Virus record (IMG/VR): IMGVR_UViG_3300028805_000037
Coordinates: 32,001-96,000 of that record
DNA: 64,000 bases
Source: a virus
Taxonomy: Duplodnaviria; Caudoviricetes
Direction: 5' to 3' (one strand)
Shown here in pieces: positions 8,851-60,119 of this stretch. Position numbers and translations under genes: made by a program. The notes under the pieces are model-generated. The model had not been told where the DNA came from, searched no databases, and saw nothing but the letters and a program-made list of their open reading frames with translations. How positions within the stretch are numbered: position 1 is the stretch's first letter; every line of letters starts with the position of its first letter.

Positions 8851-9218
8851 CAGGGATAGGTGGGATGGAAATAAAAACTAAGTATAGTATAAAGGATTTA
8901 CTTTATATAATTGAAGAAGAAAAGTATGAAACAGAATGTGTATACTGTAATGGTACAGGAGTAGTAAAGATTAAAGGAAAGAAATTTGATTGTCCTAATT
9001 GTGATGGTAAAGGTGAAACTGAAACTGCAGTTAAATGGATTGTAGGTGACGCACAATATCCCGATAGAATTAGTATAGAAGTTGAGGAAGGTGAAAAGCC
9101 TAGAATAAGTTATGTATTTAAATGTGGAGATTTCCCACGTTACTATGATGAGAACGATTGTTTTCCATCTAGAGCTAAAGCACAAGCTGAATGTAATAGG
9201 AGGAACAATGAGAAATAA
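8844..9218 (+). CDS. Zinc-finger protein (CxxCxGxG repeats)
   Basis: CVYCNGTG...CPNCDGKG. Confidence 0.75.
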   Translation: MVTGIGGMEIKTKYSIKDLLYIIEEEKYETECVYCNGTGVVKIKGKKFDCPNCDGKGETETAVKWIVGDAQYPDRISIEVEEGEKPRISYVFKCGDFPRYYDENDCFPSRAKAQAECNRRNNEK

Positions 9219-12751: not shown

Positions 12752-13819
12752 AATTCTTAAAGATGTAAAAAAGTATGTAAATAATATAATAGATAATGAG
12801 TTTCATAGAATTATTGCTAGTGATATTCTTATGGTAGTTCAAAGAAGAGCATATAGTTATCTTTTAAATAATAGTTCAAAATATAATATGACTTATAATA
12901 AAATGAAAAACTTAGTTGATGAAATTATTGTTTTATTTAATAGTGAAAAACAAAAAATAGAAGTTAAAATAAAATGGAATAATTAATTGTATAGGAGGTG
13001 TAATGATGAATATAAAAAAGAAAGATGCATTGTATAAGATAAAAGGAACTAAATTTCCTAAAAAATTATATGAAGTCTGGACAGATACAGAAGGTGAGTG
13101 TTTAGTTGATATATGGATATTGGAAGATAAAGAAGAAAATTTATATGGTTTAGACGAAACTATATCTTTAGAACACTTTAATGAAAGTTATAAATTAAAT
13201 CTTGAAGAAATGAAAACTAAAAGTAAAGTTGTTAATAATTGTTATCTTAAGTTGTTAGTACCAAAAAAAGAAAAAGACTTAGAGATATTAAAAAAATTAG
13301 TTCCACTATATAAAAAAGAAGTTATGGAGATATTAAATGGAAATTAAAATGGTAAATACAGATAAAGTAAGTGAAGAAAATAAAAAAGTATTTTTTGAGT
13401 ATATGGAAAAAACTTCAAAAGAATTCCATGATGAAGCTTATCAATACTTAGATAAACTTTATAGTATACGGAATGTTTTAACTTATCGTCCAAGTAGTTT
13501 ATTAACAAAACATTTATGTTATATTTGTGGTTGTCTTATAATGACTCAATTTACATTATGTATTAATGATTATATAAATATGATTTTACATGGTGAAAAT
13601 CTAATAGTAAGTTGTATCTTTGGGTTTGTTTTAATGTTAGTTCAAATAGGTGCCTTGTGTGTTATATTATATCAAGCTATGTTACGCGATAAAAACTATA
13701 GGCATGCATGTTATTTAAAATTTAAGAAAAGTGATTGTGTAAAGAAATATGAAAATAATTTATTAAAAAAAGCAGAAGAATTAAATATAGAATTGGAAAT
13801 AATTGATGATGAAAATTAA
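12738..13819 (+). CDS. Three hypothetical proteins (12738-12986, 13003-13347, 13337-13819 with two TM segments)
   Basis: ORF track, SD sites. Confidence 0.7.
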
Positions 13820-13820
13820 T

Positions 13821-13849
13821 TTGCATTTTATTTTAAAATATGGTATAAT
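13821..13849 (+). promoter_or_regulatory. Sigma70-type promoter
   Basis: TTGCAT-N17-TATAAT with TG at the extended -10 position. Confidence 0.65.
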
Positions 13850-13881
13850 TATTTTTTATTAAATTTCGCGAGGTAAAATTG

Positions 13882-15411
13882 ATGAAGAAACGTATTACAA
13901 AAGAAGATGTAATAAATGATTACATTAAATGTAATGAAAATTACTTTAGCAAAACCAAGCGTGCAAACATTCCTAGATCAGTATATAGACTACACTCAAC
14001 TCTATCAGAACATCAAGTAAGAAAATATTTCGGCGGGTTATCAGCACTAAGAAAAGCAGCAGATAAAAAACTATTATTACGTTCTAGATTTACATCAGAA
14101 ATTAACAGTAAGGGTTATAAAAAGCAGCGTTATATTGTAACATCTATTGTAGAAGGAGCACCTATTAATAATGATTTTTATAGTGCATTAAAGTTATATG
14201 CTAATAAGAATAATGCTAAACTTCTTATGCTTTGGATGCGTGGTGTTTTAAAAACAGATATGTTTTCTTCAGAAGAAATGCGTGAGTATGAACCTTATTT
14301 AATAACAGGATTTAAATTTAATAGTAACTTAGAAGCAAGAGATTTTCTATTGCATCCTGCACAGCAATTACCTTTAACAGGACTTGATAGATTTGGTTCC
14401 AAAAAAACTTCATTAATTATATCCAGTACAAAGCAAATGATGACATCGGTTCCTAGACCAAAGAATACATTACCACATGTATTATGGACGACTGGAACTA
14501 TATCTATTCCAAATTACTCTAATACAAGAGCAGGTGAACTAGCCAAACAAGATAATACACTCGGGGCATTAGTTGTAGAAGTTGAGTCAAATAAAAAATT
14601 TTATATCAGAAATGTTGAATGGTTAAAAGACTGTTTTGTAGATTTAGGAAAGGCATATTATAAAGATAAAATAAAAAATATTACATGTGAAGCTATGGTT
14701 CTCGGAGATATACACAGCCAAGAAATAGATATGACTGCATTAAATAATGCTTTGGAACAAGTAAATTATTTAAAAGCCAAGAAGATATTCTTACATGATT
14801 TAAGTAGTTTTAATAGTATATCACACCATAATGAAGGGAAATATTTAACGAAAACTTTTATTCCACACGAGGCAAATACACTTAGGAAAGAATTAAATAT
14901 AGCAAAAGGTATATTAAAATATATACATCAATCAGTTAAAAGTTCTATTATAGTTGTGCAATCAAATCATGACGACTTTTTATACAGGTATTGTGATGAA
15001 GGATATTTCTTAAAGGATGCACACAATGCAATTTTAGGTGCTGAATGCTTTATAAAATTTACAAAAAACCGTAATCCAATTCAAGACTTTGTAAAGATGA
15101 GTTGTGTAAAATTTTTAAAACAAGATGAAAGTTATCAAGTTAATGGTATTGAAGTTGGTCAACATGGTCACCACGGTTCGAATGGAGCAAAAGGAAGTCC
15201 GAATGGTTTTAGGAAGTCATATAATAAAATTATACTTGGGCATTCACATTCACCTAAAATTTTAGGTGATACTTATTATGTAGGAACTTTATCTAAACTA
15301 ACTTTATCGTATAATAAAGGATCAAGTTCTTGGCTACCAGCCAATGCAGCAATCTATTCTAATGGTAGCAGACAGCTTTTAATTTGGATAGAAGATAATT
15401 GGAAAATGTAA
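13882..15411 (+). CDS. Calcineurin-like metallophosphoesterase domain protein
   Basis: LGDIH, LHD, SNHD, QHGH, GHSH motifs in the C-terminal half. Confidence 0.75.
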   Translation: MKKRITKEDVINDYIKCNENYFSKTKRANIPRSVYRLHSTLSEHQVRKYFGGLSALRKAADKKLLLRSRFTSEINSKGYKKQRYIVTSIVEGAPINNDFYSALKLYANKNNAKLLMLWMRGVLKTDMFSSEEMREYEPYLITGFKFNSNLEARDFLLHPAQQLPLTGLDRFGSKKTSLIISSTKQMMTSVPRPKNTLPHVLWTTGTISIPNYSNTRAGELAKQDNTLGALVVEVESNKKFYIRNVEWLKDCFVDLGKAYYKDKIKNITCEAMVLGDIHSQEIDMTALNNALEQVNYLKAKKIFLHDLSSFNSISHHNEGKYLTKTFIPHEANTLRKELNIAKGILKYIHQSVKSSIIVVQSNHDDFLYRYCDEGYFLKDAHNAILGAECFIKFTKNRNPIQDFVKMSCVKFLKQDESYQVNGIEVGQHGHHGSNGAKGSPNGFRKSYNKIILGHSHSPKILGDTYYVGTLSKLTLSYNKGSSSWLPANAAIYSNGSRQLLIWIEDNWKM

Positions 15412-19840: not shown

Positions 19841-20410
19841 ATGAAGAAGAATGCTGTACTTGTAGTAGATTATCAGTTCGATTTCGCCGATCCAAAAGGT
19901 GGACTCTACGTTAAAGACGGAGAGAAGATTCAAAAATCAATTAATGAATTTCTAGAAAAAGTTAAAGACAAAGTTACTGTCATAGCCTCTAGAGATTGGC
20001 ATCCCAAAAATCATTGTTCATTTACAGAAAATGGTGGACAATGGAACACTCATTGCGTTCAAAATACAGACGGCGCAAAGCTATACTTTGATTCAAAGTA
20101 CGTAAACATTTTTATTGATAAAGGACAAGACGTAAATAAAGAGGAGTACTCCTGTGTAACAACAGATGCAGTTAAAAATAGATTTAGTGAATTTGATAAC
20201 ATCTTTGTGCTTGGTTTAGCAAAAGATTTCTGTGTAAAATATTCACTAAAAGATTTAAATTTCTTTAATAATAAAATCAAATTATATTTAATTAATGACT
20301 TATCTAAATCGGTTTTTCCTAAAAAAGATAAAGAATTACTTAAAGAATTTGAAGGACAAGATATAAAAATAATAAATAAAAAAGAAGCGGAGGAAATAAT
20401 ATGTCTATAA
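19841..20410 (+). CDS. pncA: Nicotinamidase
   Basis: VVDYQFDF, SRDWHP..HCSF, W..HCVQ, KG...EEYS, GLAKDFCV. Confidence 0.9.
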   Translation: MKKNAVLVVDYQFDFADPKGGLYVKDGEKIQKSINEFLEKVKDKVTVIASRDWHPKNHCSFTENGGQWNTHCVQNTDGAKLYFDSKYVNIFIDKGQDVNKEEYSCVTTDAVKNRFSEFDNIFVLGLAKDFCVKYSLKDLNFFNNKIKLYLINDLSKSVFPKKDKELLKEFEGQDIKIINKKEAEEIICL

Positions 20411-21579
20411 TTAAAAGTTTATTAGATACAGATTTATATAAAATCAATATGATGTGTGTATACTTCAATCGTTTTCCAAATAAAGTTGGAAGATTTGAAT
20501 TTAAATGTCGTAATAAAGATGTAAGATTTACAACAACAATGCTTAAAAGAATTAATGATGAGTTAGATAATTTATGTACTTTACAATTTACAAATGAAGA
20601 AATAAATTGGTTATCTAATTTAGCATGGCTTAAAAATAAAATTGGCTTCTTATCATTTCTAAAACTATTTAAGTTTGATAGAAATATGATAACAGCAGAA
20701 CTTCAAGAGGGTGGAAAACTTAAAGTTTCTGCTAAAGGTCCTATCTATATGATAAGTTATTTCGAAACATTTGTTCTCTCTATTGTAAGTGAAGTATATT
20801 ATGATGCAACTTATCCAGAAGAAGATTGCTCTTTAGCTATGAGCAAATTAGAAAAGAAAATAGGTCAGATATTATACGCTGGCAGACCATTTAAGTTCAG
20901 TGAATTTGGTGCTAGAAGAAGATTTAGTTTTGATTGGCACGAGCAAGTAGTTAAAACATTAGCTAAAAAAGTACCTTCATGGGAATTTGTAGGTACATCA
21001 GATATGTATTTAGCTATGAAATATAATCTCGTTCCTCAAGGAACTATGGCACATGAGTTCCTTTGTTTAGGTCAAGCACTGGATAATGTAACATTAGAAG
21101 CATCTCAAAGATACATGTTACAACAATGGGCAGATGAGTTCAGAGGAAATTTAGGTATAGCTTTAAGTGATAATCTTGGAATAGATAAATTTCTTAAAGA
21201 CTTTGATTTATATTTCGCTAAACTATTCAATGGTATAAGACAAGATAGTGGAGATCCAATAGAAGTTGGGAATAAAATAATTGAACACTATAAAAAACTT
21301 GGTATTAATCCTTTAACCAAAACAATAGTATTTAGTGATTGTTTAGATGTTAGAAAAGCACTAGATTTGAATGAAAAATTTTCTGATAAAATTAATGTAG
21401 CCTTTGGTATAGGAACCAATTTAGTTTGTGATATGGGGAGTTTCAGTCCATTACAATGTGTAATGAAACTTGTAGAAGTAGATGGTAAACCTGTAGCAAA
21501 GATAAGTGATAGCGATGGTAAAGTAATGTGTGAAGATGAAGATTATATAAATTATCTCAAGTCTGTAATTAAGAGATAA
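20401..21579 (+). CDS. pncB: Nicotinate phosphoribosyltransferase
   Basis: SLLDTDLYK, EFGARRRFS, GTMAHE, RQDSGDP, FGIGTNL, PVAKISD. Confidence 0.92.
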   Translation: MSIIKSLLDTDLYKINMMCVYFNRFPNKVGRFEFKCRNKDVRFTTTMLKRINDELDNLCTLQFTNEEINWLSNLAWLKNKIGFLSFLKLFKFDRNMITAELQEGGKLKVSAKGPIYMISYFETFVLSIVSEVYYDATYPEEDCSLAMSKLEKKIGQILYAGRPFKFSEFGARRRFSFDWHEQVVKTLAKKVPSWEFVGTSDMYLAMKYNLVPQGTMAHEFLCLGQALDNVTLEASQRYMLQQWADEFRGNLGIALSDNLGIDKFLKDFDLYFAKLFNGIRQDSGDPIEVGNKIIEHYKKLGINPLTKTIVFSDCLDVRKALDLNEKFSDKINVAFGIGTNLVCDMGSFSPLQCVMKLVEVDGKPVAKISDSDGKVMCEDEDYINYLKSVIKR

Positions 21580-21634
21580 TATATTAGCCGTTAAGTCAGT
21601 TAAAGTATATTAAAATATATAATAGGAGAAACAA

Positions 21635-22141
21635 ATGAAATATATAATATGTGATTTAGACGGAACATTATTTAATGTAGAACATAGACTTCCTTTATTA
21701 CAGAACTGTAGAAATGAGGAAGACTATGATAAATTTCATGCAGCACATGTTAACGATACTATTAATGAAAATATACTTGGGATACTTAATACTTATATGA
21801 TGTTAAAGAATAGTGTAAAGTTTATATTTGTTACAGGACGCCATGAAAAATTTAGGGAGTCAACTGTTAAACAACTGGATGATTTAGTTTTTTCACCAGA
21901 ACAATATACGCTTTATATGAAGTCTTCCTATGAAATGTATACACCAAATTTTGTAACAACAGTATTAGAAGACTTAGCAATTAAATGTGGTTTAGATAAT
22001 ATATTATTTGTTTTGGACGATAGACCAGCAACAGTTAAACTTTATAGAGAAGCAGGTCTTACTTGTTTACAAGTAAAAGATTCAACTGGCTTTATTGAAG
22101 ATGTAAAGAAAGAGGAAATACAAAATGAAACTAAACTTTAA
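21635..22141 (+). CDS. HAD phosphatase (PNKP 3'-phosphatase-like)
   Basis: CDLDGTL, FVTGR, LDDR motifs. Confidence 0.75.
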   Translation: MKYIICDLDGTLFNVEHRLPLLQNCRNEEDYDKFHAAHVNDTINENILGILNTYMMLKNSVKFIFVTGRHEKFRESTVKQLDDLVFSPEQYTLYMKSSYEMYTPNFVTTVLEDLAIKCGLDNILFVLDDRPATVKLYREAGLTCLQVKDSTGFIEDVKKEEIQNETKL

Positions 22142-22445
22142 CAAACAACAGACACTTACTATTGAAGAACTATTATTCCATAAAACTTGTGATATGTGTC
22201 CAGAACAATATGACGTTTATAAAGGAACAAAACAAGTAGGATATGTTAGATTAAGATGGGGAAATTTAACTGTAGATTTTCCAAATGCTTTAGACAAACT
22301 TATTTATTCAAAAGACTTTGGTAACGGATATAAAGGTTGTTTTAACGATGATAATGAAAGAATACTTTACCTTAAAAAGGTAGCAAAGTGTATAAAGGAG
22401 GAGCTAAAACATGTTAACAAACGAAAAAGTAATACAAAATATTAA
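22125..22445 (+). CDS. Hypothetical phage protein
   Basis: TCDMCPEQYDV..GYVRLRWG; overlaps neighbours. Confidence 0.7.
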   Translation: MKLNFNKQQTLTIEELLFHKTCDMCPEQYDVYKGTKQVGYVRLRWGNLTVDFPNALDKLIYSKDFGNGYKGCFNDDNERILYLKKVAKCIKEELKHVNKRKSNTKY

Positions 22446-23094
22446 AGATTGGTTTAAACAATCCGGTTCAAAAACTGCAGTAATAAATATAAGTGGCGGA
22501 GCAGATAGTACTTATGTTGCTTGGTGTTTAGTAAAAGCGTTAGGAAAAGAAAATGTATATGGTATTCTCCAACCTAATGGTGCACAAAAAGATATTAATG
22601 ATGCTTTAAAAGTAGTTACAGAATTAGGAATTAGTTATACTGTATTGAATATAGGTGATATCTATGATAAATTTAAAGTATTATTAAGTAGTAATAATCC
22701 AGACTATATTAATATTGCACCTAGAATCCGTATGACTGTGGCTTATGCAATAGCTAATGGTAGGAACGCTAGAGTAATTGGTACAGGTAATGCATCAGAA
22801 AGATATGTAGGATACTTTACAAAATGGGGAGATGGCGCTTGTGACTATAATCCTATAAAGGATATTCTTAAAACAGACTTAATTCAAATGGGATTAGAGT
22901 TAGGAATACCAAAAGAACTTATCTGTAAAACGCCTTCGGATGGTCTTACAGGAAAAACTGATGAAGAAAAATATGGCTTTTCTTATAAAGTTTTGGATGA
23001 GTATATTAAGACTGGTGTCTGTGAAGACTATAAAATAAAAGAAAAAATAGATAGGATGCATAAAAATAGCAGGCATAAGTTTGAGGAGATTTAA
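22411..23094 (+). CDS. nadE: NH3-dependent NAD+ synthetase (single domain)
   Basis: ISGGADS, NIAPRIRM, GTGNASERYVGYFTKWGDG, PSDGL..TDE. Confidence 0.92.
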   Translation: MLTNEKVIQNIKDWFKQSGSKTAVINISGGADSTYVAWCLVKALGKENVYGILQPNGAQKDINDALKVVTELGISYTVLNIGDIYDKFKVLLSSNNPDYINIAPRIRMTVAYAIANGRNARVIGTGNASERYVGYFTKWGDGACDYNPIKDILKTDLIQMGLELGIPKELICKTPSDGLTGKTDEEKYGFSYKVLDEYIKTGVCEDYKIKEKIDRMHKNSRHKFEEI

Positions 23095-23095
23095 A

Positions 23096-23461
23096 ATGAA
23101 ATGGTTATATAGACTAGAAAGTATATCTCCTGATAGTGGTTTATGGTACAACTCTAATAATAAATACGTGTGGGGTTGTAAAAACTGTCCCGGTGATGCC
23201 AAAAATTTACCTATGGGTTATGATGAAAGATACCATATAGACGGTAAAAATTGGTTCTCTTCTTGTTCAAATAAAGAAGATTTATTGCACTGGTATAGTA
23301 AAGAAGATGCAATATTCCTAATAGAACATGGATTTGTATTTACAAGATACTTAGCAGTTGATTATCATGAGTTTAAAAAAGAAACGGTATTCTTAAAAGA
23401 AACCGCAGTCAAAAGAGAAGTTATAGATTTCATTAGTTTATTTGAAGGAGATCTAAAATGA
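23096..23461 (+). CDS. Hypothetical protein, possible ADP-ribosyltransferase-like fold
   Basis: GAGGAG SD; LYR...FSSCS...ETVF spacing. Confidence 0.6.
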   Translation: MKWLYRLESISPDSGLWYNSNNKYVWGCKNCPGDAKNLPMGYDERYHIDGKNWFSSCSNKEDLLHWYSKEDAIFLIEHGFVFTRYLAVDYHEFKKETVFLKETAVKREVIDFISLFEGDLK

Positions 23462-23832
23462 AGAAAATATTGATATTAATACTTTGTTTAATAATATTAC
23501 CTACTATTTGTTCTGCAGATTATACTGATATGTTTAAAAATTTTTTAGTAGTGCAATTTATAACAACTTTAACATCTGCAAGTACTGGACAGAAAGCATC
23601 AGATAAAGTTGATACAAAAAGACAATATGAGAAAAAGAAAAAAGAATTTCTAACAAAGAAATTTCCTGGACCAAAAGGAGAATTAAAACGCTGCTATATT
23701 GGTGATAGTTATCCTGAAGTATATGTGTTAACGGTAGAAAGTCATGATTATCTTATACTTAAAACTAATGTAGGCGTTAGTCTTGCACATTCAGAAAGTT
23801 GTCCTTGCAAACAAACGGAGGAAATAAAATGA
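23458..23832 (+). CDS. Secreted/membrane hypothetical protein
   Basis: Signal-peptide-like N-terminus. Confidence 0.7.
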   Translation: MKKILILILCLIILPTICSADYTDMFKNFLVVQFITTLTSASTGQKASDKVDTKRQYEKKKKEFLTKKFPGPKGELKRCYIGDSYPEVYVLTVESHDYLILKTNVGVSLAHSESCPCKQTEEIK

Positions 23833-24857
23833 AAAAACTAGATGCTATCGTTTATATAGGTAGGTTTCAGCCCTTCACTAATGCTCACTATAGGATAGTG
23901 AAACAGGCAATATCTAAAGCTAAAAAACTTATTATAGTTATTGGCTCAGCAAAACGCTCTAGATCGTTCAGAAATCCGTTTACAGCGGAAGAAAGGAAAG
24001 ATATGGTATCTTCTATTAAAGATTTAAAAAAGGCAAAAATAGAGTATATACTGCAGCCTAATAGCAATTATAACTTCAACTGGTGGGTTAAAGATGTACA
24101 GGAACAAGTAGGTAAGTTAACTAAACCTGGGGATAAAATAGGAATAATAGGACATAAAAAAGACGCTTCTTCTTATTATTTGAACTATTTTCCACAGTGG
24201 GAGTTTATCGAACTATCAGAATTAGAAGAAGGTCTATCTGCTACAAGTGTTAGAAACTTATATTTTATGGATGCTACAGCTGTAATACCAGAGTTAGGCG
24301 TACCAAAAGACGTTAAAGATTGGTTGAATAATTGGAAACGTACTAATCGAACTATATTTGAAACAATAAAAGATGAAAAGAAATTCATTGTAGAGTATAA
24401 AAAGAAATGGGAAAACGCTCCTTTTCAACCTATATTTGTAACTACGGATGCTATGGTTTTATGTAAAGGACATATACTTCTTATTCGTAGAAGGTTTAAT
24501 CCAGGTAAAGATTTATACGGTATGCCTGGAGGGTTTATAGATCCTACAGAATATCTTAAAGATTGTGCTGTAAGAGAACTAAAAGAAGAAACAAAAATAG
24601 ATGTAGACAAAGCTGTACTTAGAAATAGTATAGAATTGACCAAAGTATTTGATGACCCATATAGAGAAGCACGTGGACGAGGTATAACACATTGCTTTCT
24701 ATTTAATTTAAACTTAAAGGATTTACCAAAAGTTAAAGGCTCGGACGATGCTTATGGTGCTCAATGGATACCATTAGGAAGTTTAGACGAGATGCAAGAC
24801 CAATTCTTTGGTGACCATTATCAGATTATAAAGAATATGCTCGGACAAATAAACTAA
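23829..24857 (+). CDS. nadM: Bifunctional NMN/NaMN adenylyltransferase - Nudix (ADP-ribose) hydrolase
   Basis: IGRFQPFTNAH, NPFTAEER, SATSVR; Nudix box GGFIDPTEYLKDCAVRELKEET; FGDHYQII. Confidence 0.9.
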   Translation: MKKLDAIVYIGRFQPFTNAHYRIVKQAISKAKKLIIVIGSAKRSRSFRNPFTAEERKDMVSSIKDLKKAKIEYILQPNSNYNFNWWVKDVQEQVGKLTKPGDKIGIIGHKKDASSYYLNYFPQWEFIELSELEEGLSATSVRNLYFMDATAVIPELGVPKDVKDWLNNWKRTNRTIFETIKDEKKFIVEYKKKWENAPFQPIFVTTDAMVLCKGHILLIRRRFNPGKDLYGMPGGFIDPTEYLKDCAVRELKEETKIDVDKAVLRNSIELTKVFDDPYREARGRGITHCFLFNLNLKDLPKVKGSDDAYGAQWIPLGSLDEMQDQFFGDHYQIIKNMLGQIN

Positions 24858-25472: not shown

Positions 25473-27653
25473 ATGAGTAAAGAACAACAAGAAGAATTTA
25501 AAAAACCTATTAAGGTCGATTATCCAGAGTTTAATATTGAAGATCCAGTGGAATATCAGAAAGAACTAGATAAAATAACAGACCAATATTTCATCAACGC
25601 GTCTACAACAAGAACTCTTAAAAATATAAGAGAAGTATTAGTTAATAAATTAAGAAAAAAATATCATTTAACTAATGGTCAACTTAAAGCAGCAGCTGAT
25701 TCTATACTTAAAATTCATGGATTACATGAAGATAACTTTGATGAAACATTACAATTCTCAAAGTTTATAAGTGCAAAGAATAATAATGAATTAAGTATTG
25801 ATGGTAATGCAAATAAAACTGAAACAGGTATTAAAGCATTAATGGTAGAGTCAACACTTGCTTCAAGAAAGCTAATCGGTTTTGATCAACTTTACAGAGT
25901 TATGGTTGATTTATACGGCAGAGAAAAAGCAAAAGAATTATCTGGAAGTATGTATGACTTATCTTTAGCTATTGCAGACTCCACTAATTTACTAATTCCA
26001 TATTGCTATGCTGCAGACTTCTCAAAACTTGTTACATTAGGAAGAGAATTTGGAAAAGAACCTTCAGCTCCAGCAAAAAGATTAAGCACATACTGTAATA
26101 TTGTTTGTGATACTGTAAGAGAATTAAGCTGTCATTTAGCAGGAGCAGTAGCAATTTCTACATTCTTTTTAGACTCTGCTCACTTATTAATATATAAAGA
26201 AAGAATTCCTTTAGAAAAAATTAAAACAAATAAAAGAGTTAGATATTATATAAACAATTGTTACCAACAAGTTATCTATTCATTAAACCATGCTTCAAGA
26301 GATGCAGTTGAATCTCCGTTTACAAATGTATCTTGCTTTGATGAATATAAACTTAGAACACTTGTTAGTGATATGGCTTGGTATTTTCCAATGAAAATAA
26401 AAGCTCTTATAGATAATAATATGGATGATGAAGTACTTGGTCATAAAATGACTGAAGATGAATGGAAAGATTTTGTTATAGACTATATAATGACATTACA
26501 AGAAATTTATATAGATATATTCAATGAAGGTAATCCTTTAAAAGGTGGATTACAGTTTGCTTTTCCAGTTACAACTATAAACTTTTCTGTTAAATATAAC
26601 GACAAAGGTGAAAGAGAAATCCAAGAACCAAACAGATTATTAAATTATGCAACAAAAAAAGACATTAAAAGATATAATGTTTATGTTAGTGAAGGGACTA
26701 AAGTAGCGTCCTGTTGCAGATTGATAAATGATACTGAAATGTCAGAACTTGCTTCGTCTGTTAATTCATTTGGAGGTTCTTCTATATCATTAGGTTCAGA
26801 TAGAGTTGTTACTATTGACCTCTTAAGAATTGCTTTCGAATGTAAAGACTATGAAGATTATAAAAGAATATTGAAGTTAAGAATAGACCATTGTGCAAAG
26901 ATATTAAAAGCACATAGAGTACTTATAATGAAATTAAAATCATTAGGTACACAACCTTTTATATCAAACGGTTGGATTAACTTTGGTAGAATGTTCGGTA
27001 CATATGGTTGTATCGGATACTTTGAAGCTGATAAAATATTAAAGAAAAGATTTGATAAAGACTTTGATTATATGAAAGACTTTATGATTTATCTTAATCA
27101 AGAAGTCGATAATAAAAAGAAAGAAGTAGATGAAAACGGAAATAAATTATACAATTTCCCAATGAACATTGAGCAGATTCCAGGTGAATCGATGGCTATT
27201 AAGATAGCTAAAGTGGATAAAATTCTTTATCCAAATGAAGAAATACCTACAGTTTTAGCTAACCAGTTTGTTTCATTATGGGAAGATAAAACAATCTATG
27301 AAAAAATGGATAGAGATGGGGAACTTAATAGACTATTAACTGGTGGTGGAATTTGTCATATACAATGCTCTGAAAAACTATCATCACATCAAGCAAAGAA
27401 ACTTATTAAGTATGCCGCCAAGAGTGGTTGTGATCACTTTGCTATTAATGGTGTATATATGAAATGTAACGATTGTAATACTGTTGTAGAAAGTAGTGGT
27501 GATACATGTCCTAAATGTGGTGGTAAACATGTAGAACATTATACAAGAGTAATTGGTTTCTTTAGTAAAGTAGAAAATTGGATACCAGAAAGACAAACAG
27601 CAGATTTTCCTAATAGAAAATTTGTTGACGTAAAAACAATTGACTCTAAATAA
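25473..27653 (+). CDS. nrdD: Class III anaerobic ribonucleoside-triphosphate reductase
   Basis: ESPFTN, FPVTT, SCCRL, Zn site CNDC..CPKC, glycyl radical motif TRVIGF. Confidence 0.92.
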   Translation: MSKEQQEEFKKPIKVDYPEFNIEDPVEYQKELDKITDQYFINASTTRTLKNIREVLVNKLRKKYHLTNGQLKAAADSILKIHGLHEDNFDETLQFSKFISAKNNNELSIDGNANKTETGIKALMVESTLASRKLIGFDQLYRVMVDLYGREKAKELSGSMYDLSLAIADSTNLLIPYCYAADFSKLVTLGREFGKEPSAPAKRLSTYCNIVCDTVRELSCHLAGAVAISTFFLDSAHLLIYKERIPLEKIKTNKRVRYYINNCYQQVIYSLNHASRDAVESPFTNVSCFDEYKLRTLVSDMAWYFPMKIKALIDNNMDDEVLGHKMTEDEWKDFVIDYIMTLQEIYIDIFNEGNPLKGGLQFAFPVTTINFSVKYNDKGEREIQEPNRLLNYATKKDIKRYNVYVSEGTKVASCCRLINDTEMSELASSVNSFGGSSISLGSDRVVTIDLLRIAFECKDYEDYKRILKLRIDHCAKILKAHRVLIMKLKSLGTQPFISNGWINFGRMFGTYGCIGYFEADKILKKRFDKDFDYMKDFMIYLNQEVDNKKKEVDENGNKLYNFPMNIEQIPGESMAIKIAKVDKILYPNEEIPTVLANQFVSLWEDKTIYEKMDRDGELNRLLTGGGICHIQCSEKLSSHQAKKLIKYAAKSGCDHFAINGVYMKCNDCNTVVESSGDTCPKCGGKHVEHYTRVIGFFSKVENWIPERQTADFPNRKFVDVKTIDSK

Positions 27654-27668
27654 AAAATTTAGTATAAT
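27640..27668 (+). promoter_or_regulatory. Sigma70-type promoter for the tRNA-like gene
   Basis: TTGACT-N17-TATAAT. Confidence 0.75.
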
Positions 27669-27678
27669 ATAAAAAGAT

Positions 27679-27813
27679 CTTTGTATAGCTCAACGGGAGA
27701 GCGGCTTGCTTTGCAAGCGACTGTTACAGATTTATGAACTTATCACTCATAAATTGATGGTAACATAGACTTGATATGTCGAGGTGGTGGTTCAAATCCA
27801 CTTACAAAGGTCA
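27679..27813 (+). ncRNA. tRNA-like RNA with ~60 extra nt (multiple central arms)
   Basis: Acceptor CTTTGTA/TACAAAG; TA-GCTC..GAGC D arm; GGTGG-TTCAAAT-CCACT T arm; three hairpins between D and T arms. Confidence 0.75.
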
Positions 27814-27832
27814 CATTTTTTAGGGGAAAAAG

Positions 27833-28021
27833 ATGAGTAAAAAAATGAAATCCTATTGGTTTTTATATGAAGAAATAAAAAAATGCACGGATTGTCCTTG
27901 TAATTTTTTAGATGGGCATCAAAGTTACTGTAGGCTTTTAAAAAAATTTAATGTAAACAAAAAGAAAGATTGCCCTTTAGAAATCGTAGAAGAATGTAAA
28001 TTTGTAGGAGGTACTGACTAA
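27833..28021 (+). CDS. Small Cys-rich protein
   Basis: CTDCPC..YC..CPL. Confidence 0.65.
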   Translation: MSKKMKSYWFLYEEIKKCTDCPCNFLDGHQSYCRLLKKFNVNKKKDCPLEIVEECKFVGGTD

Positions 28022-28296
28022 TGCTAAATATTATCAAAATTTATACATCTTTTTGTGTACCATGTAAAATGTTAATCCCTGTATTAGAAAAATTACAGGC
28101 AGAATTTACAGGCAAAATTTCAATTCAAGATGTTAATGTAGATGAAGGTATACCGGAATTATATGCAGATATGAATATAATGAGCACACCTACATTACTA
28201 TTTATAAAAGATGGAGTGCTATTAAAAAAGATTGTAGGTCTTAGATCTTATGAGTCTTTAAAAGAATTAATAACTAAATTACTTGAGGAAAAATAA
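28021..28296 (+). CDS. Thioredoxin
   Basis: CVPC active site, VNVDE, STPTLLF.KDG. Confidence 0.85.
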   Translation: MLNIIKIYTSFCVPCKMLIPVLEKLQAEFTGKISIQDVNVDEGIPELYADMNIMSTPTLLFIKDGVLLKKIVGLRSYESLKELITKLLEEK

Positions 28297-28990: not shown

Positions 28991-29030
28991 TAAAAAAAAC
29001 CATCTTCCTAATATTAGGAAGATGGTTTAA
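28991..29030. terminator. Terminator at the convergence of the two arms
   Basis: Perfect palindrome AAACCATCTTCCTAAT/ATTAGGAAGATGGTTT with an A8 run on the left (U tract for the - strand). Confidence 0.85.
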
Positions 29031-54071: not shown

Positions 54072-54278
54072 TTAATAAATTTTTATTATTCTAATTAATT
54101 TTTTTCCTGCATATTCTTTAACTTGCTTTGTATAAGCTACAACCTTGATCTCATTTGTTTTCAAATTAAAGTCTTTATAACATAAATCTCCAAACGTAAT
54201 ATTTTGTATTAACGCTTGTTTAACAGTAGGTTGTATTGTAGAAACAGACTCAACCACTTTACTTTTCCTTCTAACCAT
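54072..54278 (-). CDS. Small hypothetical protein
   Basis: GGAGGAG SD before ATG 54278. Confidence 0.65.
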   Translation of the reverse strand: MVRRKSKVVESVSTIQPTVKQALIQNITFGDLCYKDFNLKTNEIKVVAYTKQVKEYAGKKLIRIIKIY

Positions 54279-55533
54279 TACTCTCCTCCGTATAAAAATT
54301 GCCAAAATTAAAATATTTATTTACCAATTTTAAACTGCATTCTTTTCGTTTATTGTTTTCCTTCACTACAACATACTTTAAATGACTCATTGTTATTGCA
54401 TTGTATCTCTTATTATTTATTACTACTAAATCTTTTGGTTGTATTTTATATCTTTGCTTTCTAATACCTGGCTTAAAACCTCTCCTGTTACACTGTAAAG
54501 ATCTATTGTTTCTATGTTTTTGTTTTAATTCTATAGGTTTCACTCTGTTTTGAACACTACCACCTGCTATACAAAAAGCATCGTTATAATGTGTTTTCTT
54601 TAACCCTAATTCTAGTCTTTGCTGCTTCGTTATATATCCAAATGTTTCGTACATATCAGGTATATCTTTTTGAAATCTTTTATGTATAATTGACATAAAT
54701 GTATTTGATTTATACTCTTTACTACTTTTTCTGATACTAAATTTATTTTTATGTAAATCTTTATGACATTTACTGCATAAAGTTATTAGATTGTCTGGTC
54801 TATCAGTACCACCCTGACTTCTAAATTTTATGTGATGAACTTCTAATCTTGTGTTTTGTTTACCGCAATGCTGACAAGTTCTTTTATCTCTTGTTAATAC
54901 ATATTGTTTTACATTCTCAAACTCCAATTGTTTTCCTTGTTGATATTCTTTACCTTTAATATTAAGATTTTGTATTTTTTGTATATCAAAATTTGCTGTT
55001 TCTATTATCACATTATTGGTAGGAAGTATTAATTTAATTCGTTTTATAAGCTCTAAATGTGTTTGATAACGTCTCTCTATAGAAGGTGGTAACCAACCAA
55101 CATGTCTTTTCCTATTATTAAATCTAGATTCTCTATACCAATGATGCCTACATCTTCTTCCTTTTCTATACAACTTTCTCTCTAATAATCTCATTTTAGT
55201 TTTATTATCCAAAACCAAAGTACCACTTATTAGCTCTTTCTTACTACTTACCGCACTAAACCCAATGTTCTCATAACCGCTATCAATACCTAGTGTAACT
55301 TCTTGTTTACAGTCTCTCGTTTGAACCAACATCTGAATAACAAAGAAAGGATATGTTTTAACTATTCTTGCTAAACCTTTCTTTATCAATCGTTTAGCTT
55401 TACAAGGTGTTGTTGGCATTAAAGGTTGCCCTTTTACATTGAGGACGAAAACATAAGTTTTCCTCTCAATCCTGTTAGGCTCAGGTAGATTCACATCGGA
55501 GTTGTTACAAGTCAGAGTATCTCTTCTACACAC
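54271..55533 (-). CDS. iscB: IscB RNA-guided endonuclease (start codon uncertain)
   Basis: PLMP, RuvC-I GIDSG, Arg-rich bridge helix, RuvC-II IE, HNH (HHI..GGTD..NL..LC..CH), RuvC-III THYNDA. Confidence 0.92.
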   Translation of the reverse strand: MCRRDTLTCNNSDVNLPEPNRIERKTYVFVLNVKGQPLMPTTPCKAKRLIKKGLARIVKTYPFFVIQMLVQTRDCKQEVTLGIDSGYENIGFSAVSSKKELISGTLVLDNKTKMRLLERKLYRKGRRCRHHWYRESRFNNRKRHVGWLPPSIERRYQTHLELIKRIKLILPTNNVIIETANFDIQKIQNLNIKGKEYQQGKQLEFENVKQYVLTRDKRTCQHCGKQNTRLEVHHIKFRSQGGTDRPDNLITLCSKCHKDLHKNKFSIRKSSKEYKSNTFMSIIHKRFQKDIPDMYETFGYITKQQRLELGLKKTHYNDAFCIAGGSVQNRVKPIELKQKHRNNRSLQCNRRGFKPGIRKQRYKIQPKDLVVINNKRYNAITMSHLKYVVVKENNKRKECSLKLVNKYFNFGNFYTEESNG

Positions 55534-55714
55534 TGTGCCTTTAGGCTCGTTTTAATGTAGAAGTTATAAAGCTACGAACTTGTGAAGCATCCGTAGGTAT
55601 GTTCTTTTTCTTTCCTTGTAACTGCTGTTTTAACATTACTGTTATAACCTCCTAATCAGCTCTTTCGTTGTAATTCTCATTACAAACCGATAACTTTAAT
55701 TATCGGTAGCTGAC
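54280..55714 (-). mobile_element. Non-autonomous IS200/IS605-derived IscB element
   Basis: omegaRNA plus iscB, no tnpA in the window; downstream boundary approximate. Confidence 0.75.
55460..55714 (-). ncRNA. omegaRNA/HEARO scaffold
   Basis: Begins GTCAGCTAC-CGATAA-TTAAAG-TTATCG; GTCAGCT pairs with AGCTGAT; CCTACGGATGCTTCACAAGT and CTCCGATGTG segments; directly upstream of iscB. Confidence 0.8.
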
Positions 55715-59671: not shown

Positions 59672-59693
59672 ACTATCACCACTATTTAAATTT

Positions 59694-59720
59694 AGAATAA
59701 TTATGATAAAATTGTCAAGG
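59694..59720 (-). promoter_or_regulatory. Candidate late promoter motif (copy 3)
   Basis: CCTTGACA-N5-ATCATAAT-TATTCT. Confidence 0.5.
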
Positions 59721-60119
59721 GACAATATTAAACTTCTTTTTAATAATAGCTGTGCACTTATTTGCTATTTGTGTGCACAGCTTTTCTTCTTGAATATCAG
59801 CTTCATCTTGGTTGTTTAATTGTTCCACGTCTTTACCTTTTTCAAAAGTAATATCTACTTTCTTACAGTCCTCTGTAACCTTAAAGAATTTACTATAATT
59901 ACCTTCATTTAAAACTATATCTACTATAAAATGAGTAAACTCATGATAAAAAGTATTAATTAAATCAAGCTGGTCAGTATGATTAATATCTATATAAAGG
60001 TCTGTTACATTCTTTCTTTTGCGTAATCTATAGTATAATCCATAAGCATTCTGTTTATCTACTAAATCTGAAACGAAGTGTATTTTTAAATTTAATACCT
60101 TTTCTTTAGATTTTCGCAT
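59715..60119 (-). CDS. HExxH zinc metallopeptidase-like protein
   Basis: TFYHEFTH with distal EE. Confidence 0.7.
   Translation of the reverse strand: MRKSKEKVLNLKIHFVSDLVDKQNAYGLYYRLRKRKNVTDLYIDINHTDQLDLINTFYHEFTHFIVDIVLNEGNYSKFFKVTEDCKKVDITFEKGKDVEQLNNQDEADIQEEKLCTQIANKCTAIIKKKFNIVP

What the first reader, a model, noticed from the sequence alone, without database searches (positions are those of the whole stretch)
27640..27820. tRNA-like RNA with two anticodon-like arms and an extra long hairpin
Seen: own promoter; canonical acceptor, D and T arms; ~135 nt long. Between D and T lie (i) CTTGC-TTTGCAA-GCGAC, like a tRNA-Ala(UGC) arm, (ii) a long hairpin 27722-27765, and (iii) TAGAC-TTGATAT-GTCGA followed by GGTGGTGGTTCAAATCCACT, like the 3' half of tRNA-Ile(GAU). 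It ends G-TCA, not CCA. Alternative pairings exist for arms i and iii. Inference: a multi-anticodon decoy for anticodon nucleases, an intron-containing tRNA, or a new tRNA-mimic ncRNA. Intact pairing throughout argues against simple decay.
Basis: partly seen in the sequence, partly recalled or inferred. Interest (0 to 1): 0.75.

Follow-up and report, generated by a model that had tools for sequence, protein, structure and literature searches.

The report
Phage tRNA mimic with buried anticodons
A 300-kb phage carries a conserved RNA gene that keeps the full outer shape of a tRNA but has three hairpins where the codon-reading arm should be; close relatives carry an ordinary threonine tRNA, a plain hairpin or nothing at the same spot, which gives a natural comparison for the still unexplained tRNA-like RNAs of phages T4 and T5.

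Summary
The element is real: a 132-nt tRNA-shaped gene (27679-27810) behind a near-consensus sigma-70 promoter, after nrdD in a 300-kb phage. Ten alleles keep 450 of 450 modelled pair cells; 13 pairs change on both sides, including the tertiary pairs 15:48 and 19:56. Positions 1-26 and 44-73 form a canonical tRNA core, and three hairpins replace the anticodon arm. The 'two anticodon arms' reading holds only as ancestry. Arm i is a 6-bp stem with a 3-base loop that buries UGC. Arm iii is a 3-bp stem whose loop has U37 in half the alleles and may pair with the loop of hairpin ii (no covariation). No single excision gives a canonical tRNA in the window allele. Missing CCA is ordinary here. The same promoter slot holds tRNA-Thr(UGU), a plain hairpin or nothing in relatives, so the RNA is dispensable and probably a Thr/Ile chimera. 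It matches no specific Rfam family and has no sequence homology to T4 rnaC/D, T5 RNA1/2 or Lak intron tRNAs, but is the same kind as T5 RNA1/2. This scan found that kind before on other DNA, never this family. Best guess: non-decoding tRNA mimic in counter-defence. Transcription and function are untested.

The parts
27640..27668 (+). sigma-70-type promoter; the -35 box lies inside the last codons of nrdD
   Evidence: 11 of 12; kept in all relatives that carry an RNA in the slot, degenerate in the empty-slot relative L183
27679..27810 (+). tRNA-shaped RNA gene, 132 nt from position 1 to the discriminator; CCA not encoded
27679..27685 (+). acceptor stem, 5' strand (pairs with 27803-27809); 3 of 7 pairs covary; no G3.U70, no G1-C72
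27688..27703 (+). D arm and G26; position 15 (27693) covaries with 48 (27785), position 19 (27696) with 56 (27793)
   Evidence: helices 3 and 4
27704..27718 (+). arm i: 6-bp stem with a YUU loop; derived from a Thr(UGU)/Ala(UGC)-type anticodon arm, refolded so that G and C of UGC (27712-27714) are paired
27722..27765 (+). hairpin ii: 6-bp outer stem, asymmetric internal loop, 8-bp inner stem (3 covarying pairs), 9-nt loop with invariant AUCA at 27742-27745
   Evidence: an alternative fold competes in single-sequence folding
27768..27780 (+). arm iii: 3-bp stem (2 covarying pairs) and 7-nt loop with invariant UGAU at 27772-27775; Ile(GAU)-like ancestry
27782..27785 (+). 4-nt variable region AGGY, read as positions 44, 45, 46 and 48 of a class I tRNA
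   Evidence: A44, G45, G46 invariant; Y48 follows R15; numbering is my inference
27786..27802 (+). T arm; one covarying stem pair; T54, T55, A58, C61 invariant
27803..27813 (+). acceptor 3' strand, discriminator G (A in 9 of 10 alleles) and trailer TCA; in this allele the trailer can pair with the leader
25473..27653 (+). context: anaerobic ribonucleotide reductase nrdD; replaced by a 26-29% identical version in three relatives that keep the RNA
27833..28296 (+). context: 62-aa ORF and thioredoxin gene downstream, probably on the same transcript (no terminator found between); the first downstream gene varies among relatives

Best explanation
It is a phage non-coding RNA built on a complete tRNA scaffold, with a three-hairpin domain in place of the anticodon arm. 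Shown by sequence comparison: the secondary structure, two tertiary pairs of the tRNA core, the closed fold of arm i, exchange of shell and insert as modules, and interchangeability of the slot with tRNA-Thr(UGU). Inferred: it is transcribed from the host-type promoter, cut out by host RNase P and a 3' nuclease like any CCA-less tRNA gene, and given CCA by the host; it is neither decoded nor charged by a specific synthetase. It probably arose by joining the 5' half of the phage's tRNA-Thr(UGU) to an Ile(GAU)-like 3' half, after which both anticodons were hidden, one by a register shift and the other possibly by pairing with the loop of hairpin ii. The mechanism I think most likely is a stable, non-decoding tRNA look-alike acting in trans, which binds and titrates a host protein that recognises tRNA shape (elbow and acceptor end), such as a tRNA-attacking defence enzyme. 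Confidence is about 0.85 for the identity and about 0.4 for this mechanism.
For: Structure: 450 of 450 cells paired, 13 pairs with two-sided change, 0 of 500 shuffles as high, slid controls 29-45% paired. Core residues U8, A14, G18, A21, G26, A44, G45, G46, T54, T55, A58, C61 invariant; A15/U48 versus G15/C48 and G19/C56 versus A19/U56 covary. Acceptor pairs 1:72, 2:71, 4:69 and base 73 vary, which argues against one synthetase identity. L129 and L173 join one shell type to the other insert type. Same slot holds tRNA-Thr(UGU) in L160-L164; the window's 5' half scores best against the phage group's own tRNA-Thr among 766 tRNAs, and its 3' half against Ile(GAU). The genome encodes RtcB, a T4-type RNA ligase 1 and a PNKP phosphatase domain, so by established knowledge it is equipped for tRNA repair.
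Against: The ten alleles are 89% identical and fall into two or three lineages, so the covariation rests on few independent events; 15:48 and 19:56 are one change each. No target protein is identified, and the repair genes are general context only. The RNA is absent from this slot in many close relatives. The loop-loop pairing has no covariation, and a 4-bp match between such loops arises by chance about 8% of the time. For the other shell allele the best 5' match is Ala, not Thr. The host is unknown.
Confidence: 0.5

Rival explanations
1. Cis-acting processing and stabilising cassette. The slot needs a folded 5' element at the start of the thioredoxin operon; tRNA-type cleavage separates nrdD mRNA from the downstream mRNA and sets its stability. 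The inner hairpins only keep the fold intact.
For: Three different occupants start right after the same promoter and all have a long closing helix: tRNA-Thr, this RNA, and a hairpin with z -6.8. No terminator lies between nrdD, the RNA and the next genes.
Against: A plain tRNA or hairpin would do this job, so it does not explain compensatory changes in all three inner hairpins. L183 has neither promoter nor element.
Confidence: 0.2
2. Unchargeable effector of host T-box riboswitches. Arm iii presents U33-GAU to an Ile (AUC) specifier, the elbow stacks on stem I and the added NCCA end holds the antiterminator, switching on host ileS or ilv genes.
For: UGAU is invariant while positions 37 and 38 vary; the elbow is conserved. 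T-boxes contact anticodon, elbow and NCCA end (PMC7583486).
Against: The arm is two pairs shorter than an anticodon stem and sits beside two extra hairpins; UGAU may be paired inside the molecule; the discriminator is G in this allele and A in the others; no evidence that the host has T-boxes.
Confidence: 0.08
3. Multi-anticodon decoy: both loops are baits for anticodon nucleases.
For: The string YUUGCA of arm i and UGAU of arm iii are invariant; tRNA repair genes are present.
Against: UGC is base-paired with probability 0.74-1.00 and the open register 0.00. The open register breaks in all alleles. From my own knowledge PrrC and PARIS cut Lys tRNA, not Ala or Ile.
Confidence: 0.08
4. Intron-containing pre-tRNA that is cut and religated (RtcB or RNA ligase 1) to tRNA-Ile(GAU) or tRNA-Ala(UGC).
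For: ARAGORN with the intron option calls it tRNA-Ala with a 43-nt intron. The phage has ligases. Lak phages have tRNA genes with putative introns (PMC6784885). Removing arm i and hairpin ii leaves an Ile-like arm in all alleles (relaxed test).
Against: That product has an A.G mismatch in the stem, a 3-nt variable loop and U37 in 5 of 10 alleles. The strict test gives a canonical arm in at most 3 of 9 alleles and never in the window allele. Ala identity G3.U70 is absent in all alleles. Lak inserts lie at about 37/38 and leave a 5-bp anticodon stem; this one does not.
Confidence: 0.06
5. Charged carrier RNA: a synthetase that ignores the anticodon (LeuRS or SerRS) charges it, for a non-ribosomal use or to drain an amino acid.
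For: 7-bp acceptor with an unpaired base 73 in most alleles; long inner arms resemble a class II variable arm, an identity element for SerRS (PMC7609411).
Against: Acceptor pairs and the discriminator vary between alleles; the core has class I variable-loop residues.
Confidence: 0.05
6. Decaying tRNA pseudogene without function.
For: Lost or replaced in several close relatives.
Against: No broken pair in 450 cells although 27 of 78 stem columns vary; kept when the upstream gene is displaced.
Confidence: 0.03

Closest known systems
Phage T5 RNA1 and RNA2 (NC_005859.1, 30501-30644 and 32959-33083; 'tRNA-like stable RNA with unknown functions')
   Same: Phage gene of 125-144 nt with acceptor, D and T arms and extra structure in place of a normal anticodon arm.
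   Different: No sequence similarity of the insert (local scores 18 and 16, shuffle p 0.34 and 0.51); model R1 does not pick them up. In my folds each has one long central arm plus one small hairpin, not three hairpins. They lie in the tRNA cluster; this one stands alone behind its own promoter.
Phage T4 species 1 and 2 RNAs (rnaC, rnaD; NC_000866.4, 70908-71046 and 71053-71171)
   Same: Stable phage RNAs of 119-139 nt whose roles are unknown (PMC3014915); rnaC has a T arm.
   Different: No canonical D arm visible in either, no T loop in rnaD; no similarity.
Lak megaphage tRNAs with putative introns (Devoto et al. 2019, PMC6784885), including tRNA-Thr(TGT)
   Same: Long insert in the anticodon region of a large gut phage's tRNA gene; alleles with and without the insert exist; Thr(UGU) is involved.
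   Different: Lak inserts sit at about 37/38, leave a full anticodon stem and contain a T-loop or a nested tRNA. R1 scores Lak-A1 sites at 28.6 bits or less against 156 for this family.
YrlA / bacterial Y RNAs (tRNA mimics bound by Ro60)
   Same: tRNA elbow mimic without a decoding anticodon (PMC10424219).
   Different: No Rfam match other than tRNA; no TROVE gene in the genome; ends and arm order are those of a normal tRNA.
tRNA-Thr(UGU) of the same phage group
   Same: Same promoter slot in L160-L164; similar D arm, anticodon-arm string, TGTT variable loop and T arm.
   Different: U36 changed to C, stem register shifted, about 60 extra bases, Thr identity pair G1-C72 lost.

Membership tests
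decoding tRNA | 7-bp acceptor, D arm, T arm and conserved core residues | tested here: met
decoding tRNA | 5-bp anticodon stem with a 7-nt loop, Y32 U33 and purine 37 | tested here: not met
   arm i is 6 bp + 3 nt; arm iii is 3 bp + 7 nt with U37 in 5 of 10 alleles
decoding tRNA | conserved synthetase identity (Ala G3.U70; Thr G1-C72 with C2-G71; one fixed discriminator) | tested here: not met
   identity rules from my own knowledge
decoding tRNA | aminoacylation in vivo | not testable with these tools
   needs acid gels or charging assays
intron-containing tRNA (Lak type, group I or archaeal type) | one excision restores a canonical tRNA in all alleles | tested here: not met
   at most 3 of 9, none for the window allele
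intron-containing tRNA (Lak type, group I or archaeal type) | match to a self-splicing intron family | tested here: not met
   Rfam at E up to 10 gives only tRNA as a real match; insert is about 60 nt
intron-containing tRNA (Lak type, group I or archaeal type) | spliced product detected | not testable with these tools
T5 RNA1/RNA2 and T4 rnaC/rnaD-type tRNA-like stable RNAs (as a kind) | phage gene of 110-150 nt with tRNA ends and no usable anticodon arm | tested here: met
T5 RNA1/RNA2 and T4 rnaC/rnaD-type tRNA-like stable RNAs (as a kind) | sequence homology to one of those genes | tested here: not met
T5 RNA1/RNA2 and T4 rnaC/rnaD-type tRNA-like stable RNAs (as a kind) | accumulates as a stable RNA in infection | not testable with these tools
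   no reads could be examined
T5 RNA1/RNA2 and T4 rnaC/rnaD-type tRNA-like stable RNAs (as a kind) | lies in the tRNA gene cluster | tested here: not met
   cluster at genome 8449-9208, element at 59679-59810; its slot is a single-tRNA slot in relatives
Y RNA / YrlA | Rfam match and a Ro60 (TROVE) partner gene | tested here: not met
   a host Ro60 could not be checked
tmRNA | G3.U70 alanine end and a tag reading frame | tested here: not met

The most novel reading that the evidence does not exclude
A fusion of two tRNA genes (Thr 5' half, Ile 3' half) has evolved to lock both anticodons away: one by a register shift, the other by an internal codon-anticodon pairing (AUCA with UGAU) that can flip to a second partner. 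The RNA would then be a switchable tRNA mimic that exposes its Ile anticodon only on a trigger, to neutralise a tRNA-targeting defence or to drive host T-box genes.
Probability: 0.12. Interest if true: 0.8.

Novelty: new variant of a known kind. Interest (0 to 1): 0.45.

Why it matters
Elongated tRNA-like RNAs of T4 and T5 still have no known role, and one loose pattern shows that such genes are common in uncultured phages. This family adds two things. First, covariation at two tertiary pairs shows that selection acts on the tRNA core and elbow, not on decoding. Second, one promoter slot is filled by a real tRNA-Thr, by this mimic, by a plain hairpin or by nothing in close relatives, which is a ready-made allelic series for asking what the shape and the insert each contribute. 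If it blocks a tRNA-attacking defence, it would be an RNA-only counter-defence. It also warns that intron calls on such genes by tRNA finders can be wrong.

Tried and rejected
ARAGORN default finds no gene in the window. ARAGORN on 165 in-silico deletions called 164 of them tRNA with arbitrary anticodons, so it cannot test splicing; I used an explicit rule test instead. blastn against 50,697 phage records found no homologue. Two BLAST hits near genome 290.6 kb looked like a paralogue but lie inside a 1251-aa ORF and are chance. Exact-pattern scans gave nothing in IMG/VR or GTDB; nine GTDB hits of a looser pattern and 15 of 16 IMG/VR hits of another were not family members by R1. The search for related loci with NrdD gave nothing. 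The nearest more distant NrdD (58%) has only a 24-base gap after the gene. R1 finds no second copy in the genome. Pairings CGAC/GTCG and an alternative arm iii are broken in 5 of 9 alleles. A three-way-junction fold of hairpin ii is favoured by energy in five alleles but shows no two-sided change and has mismatches in the other five; I keep it only as a possible second state. Whole-record tRNA searches of related contigs were not possible or empty. Literature searches found no paper on this family; the library lacks most older T4 and T5 papers. The host was not identified.

Full report
Setting. The window is part of a single 300,445-base virus record of 26% G+C. The element follows the anaerobic ribonucleotide reductase gene nrdD (25473-27653) and precedes a 62-aa ORF and a thioredoxin gene. 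The phage's ordinary tRNA genes lie elsewhere: a cluster at genome 8449-9208 (Ser, Gln, Thr, Asn, Met, Pro) and one Met gene at 152946.

Observation. The promoter is there: TTGACT, 17 bases, TATAAT at 27640-27668, 11 of 12 consensus matches. Rfam gives one real match, tRNA, at 38.4 bits with a long insertion. The gene runs from 27679 to 27810 (132 nt) and folds better than shuffles (z -2.9; -4.7 with flanks). It ends G-TCA, but by eye the phage's Ser, Thr, Asn and Pro genes also lack CCA, and no CCA-adding enzyme was found in the genome, so the host must add it.

Homologues. Through close NrdD relatives and pattern scans I collected ten distinct alleles (mean column identity 89%); L155-L158 are identical to the window. 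On a model of 39 stem pairs, two tertiary pairs and four loop-loop pairs, all 450 cells pair, 13 pairs change on both sides, no shuffle of 500 reaches this, and slid controls pair at 29-45%. The alleles fall into two or three lineages, so these are few independent events. Still, 27 of 78 stem columns vary and none breaks a pair, which rules out simple decay.

The shell is a complete tRNA core. U8, A14, G18, A21, G26, T54, T55, A58 and C61 are invariant, and the four bases before the T arm read as A44, G45, G46, Y48 (numbering inferred). Position 15 covaries with 48 (A/U in 3 alleles, G/C in 7) and position 19 with 56 (G/C in 8, A/U in 2). These are the Levitt pair and the elbow pair of the tRNA L shape (own knowledge; G19-C56 also in PMC10424219). 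The acceptor stem is held for pairing, not for sequence: pairs 1:72, 2:71 and 4:69 and base 73 all differ between alleles, and G3.U70 is absent. Two alleles, L129 and L173, combine one shell type with the other insert type, so shell and insert exchange as modules.

The insert. Arm i is not an open anticodon arm. The supported fold is 6 pairs with a 3-base loop, with two compensatory pairs between the window and the other alleles, and it pairs the G and C of UGC. Hairpin ii has three covarying pairs in its inner stem. Arm iii has a 3-bp core with two covarying pairs and a 7-nt loop; UGAU is invariant, but position 37 is U in half the alleles, which a decoding tRNA does not have. The invariant AUCA in the loop of hairpin ii is the exact complement of that UGAU. 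There is no covariation, and such a match has about an 8% chance. One indirect argument favours it: the covarying inner stem has pairing probability of only 0.02-0.61 in single-sequence folding, because in five alleles AUCA pairs with the internal loop instead, so something must stabilise the long hairpin. I put this pairing at roughly even odds.

Splicing. ARAGORN's intron mode calls the gene tRNA-Ala, but ARAGORN accepts almost any deletion of it. An explicit test of all single excisions gave a canonical arm in at most 3 of 9 alleles and never in the window allele. The only excision that works in all alleles under loose rules leaves an A.G mismatch, a 3-nt variable loop and often U37. The Lak phage inserts described as introns lie at about 37/38 and leave the anticodon stem whole (PMC6784885), and R1 scores them no higher than ordinary tRNAs. 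The phage does encode RtcB and RNA ligase 1, so splicing is not impossible, only unsupported.

The slot. Behind the same promoter, L160-L163 carry a canonical tRNA-Thr(UGU), L164 a UGU tRNA with a long variable arm, L005 and L006 a plain long hairpin, and L183 has lost both the -10 box and the element. In L129-L131 the upstream nrdD is a different gene (26-29% identity), yet promoter and RNA remain. Among 766 tRNAs from all loci fetched, the window's 5' half scores best against the phage group's own tRNA-Thr (45.5; mean 20.5, sd 6.8), with Ala(UGC) close behind (43.5); the match runs through the TGTT variable loop. The 3' half scores best against Ile(GAU) genes. For the other shell allele the best 5' match is Ala. 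The likeliest history is a Thr-type 5' half joined to an Ile-type 3' half and then remodelled; this is inference. The window's genome keeps an ordinary tRNA-Thr in its cluster, so the slot copy was free to change.

Mechanism. Selection keeps the shape that tRNA-handling proteins read, lets synthetase identity drift, and closes the anticodons. That fits a stable RNA that is processed like a tRNA, stays out of translation and acts by its shape. The genome's tRNA repair genes and the NAD salvage genes just upstream suggest a phage that meets tRNA- and NAD-destroying defences (inference from known pathways). I therefore favour a shape decoy or inhibitor in counter-defence (about 0.4). The main rival is a cis role as a processing and stabilising cassette, which the interchangeable slot supports but which does not need three conserved inner hairpins. 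A T-box effector, an anticodon bait, a spliced tRNA and a charged carrier are each less likely. None of this is shown by experiment, and I could not examine RNA reads.

Comparison and novelty. T5 carries genes annotated as tRNA-like stable RNAs of unknown function (RNA1, RNA2), and T4 has rnaC and rnaD, roles unknown. The insert here resembles none of them. Earlier notes of this scan describe several other such RNAs but no look-alike of this sequence. So the kind is known and common; this family, its three-hairpin insert, its two vestigial anticodon arms and its swap with tRNA-Thr appear undescribed in the papers I could search. Verdict: new variant of a known kind, interest 0.45.

Noticed in passing
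L133:8551-8681 (genome coordinates the same): A second elongated tRNA-like gene, inside the tRNA cluster: 8-bp acceptor, canonical T arm, about 128 nt, ends CCA; no ARAGORN or Rfam call; unrelated to this family. A pattern scan for relatives found none.
   Followed up: partly
L133:13962-14073 and 13780-13960: A third elongated tRNA-like gene (8-bp acceptor, two inner hairpins, ends ACCA), directly after a strongly folded 180-nt stretch (-71 kcal/mol); no Rfam match.
   Followed up: partly
L133:8364-8442 and 8914-8960: A degenerate tRNA with an intact T arm, and a fragment holding only an acceptor start and D arm, within the tRNA cluster.
   Followed up: no
L164:3703-3790: A tRNA with a UGU anticodon, G1-C72/C2-G71 and a 13-nt variable arm, unusual for threonine; it sits in the same promoter slot.
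   Followed up: no
L005:5198-5234: The plain hairpin that fills the slot contains an 8-base string also found in arm iii of the L001 allele; it may be a deletion remnant of the RNA.
   Followed up: no
L008-L127: At least four unrelated groups of elongated tRNA-like genes in IMG/VR, seen by eye: one with a recurring ACAGCAA motif before an anticodon-like 3' half, one with GAGTTACTT, one with an intact first arm and two more hairpins, and one with a nested T arm followed by a D arm (L030, L035-L038).
   Followed up: partly
window 54271-55714 (-): HEARO RNA (87.2 bits) upstream of an RRXRR-HNH protein, an IscB-type arrangement.
   Followed up: no
window 19841-24857 (+): NAD salvage cluster: isochorismatase-family protein, NAPRTase, PNKP phosphatase domain, NAD synthase and a cytidyltransferase-Nudix fusion.
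   Followed up: no
L140:5092-7353 and L142:8017-9111: RtcB, split by a long insertion in one open frame (probably an intein), and a T4-type RNA ligase 1.
   Followed up: partly
L129-L131; L004, L007, L161, L183: nrdD is exchanged for a 26-29% identical version in some relatives and carries an intein in others.
   Followed up: no
L001:5363-5545 versus L133:7935-8138: The small ORF that follows the RNA in L001, L129 and L131 is 62-66% identical to the ORF just before the tRNA cluster in the window's genome.
   Followed up: no
window 28997-29028: Perfect 14-bp inverted repeat, terminator-like on both strands, where gene direction and GC skew switch.
   Followed up: no
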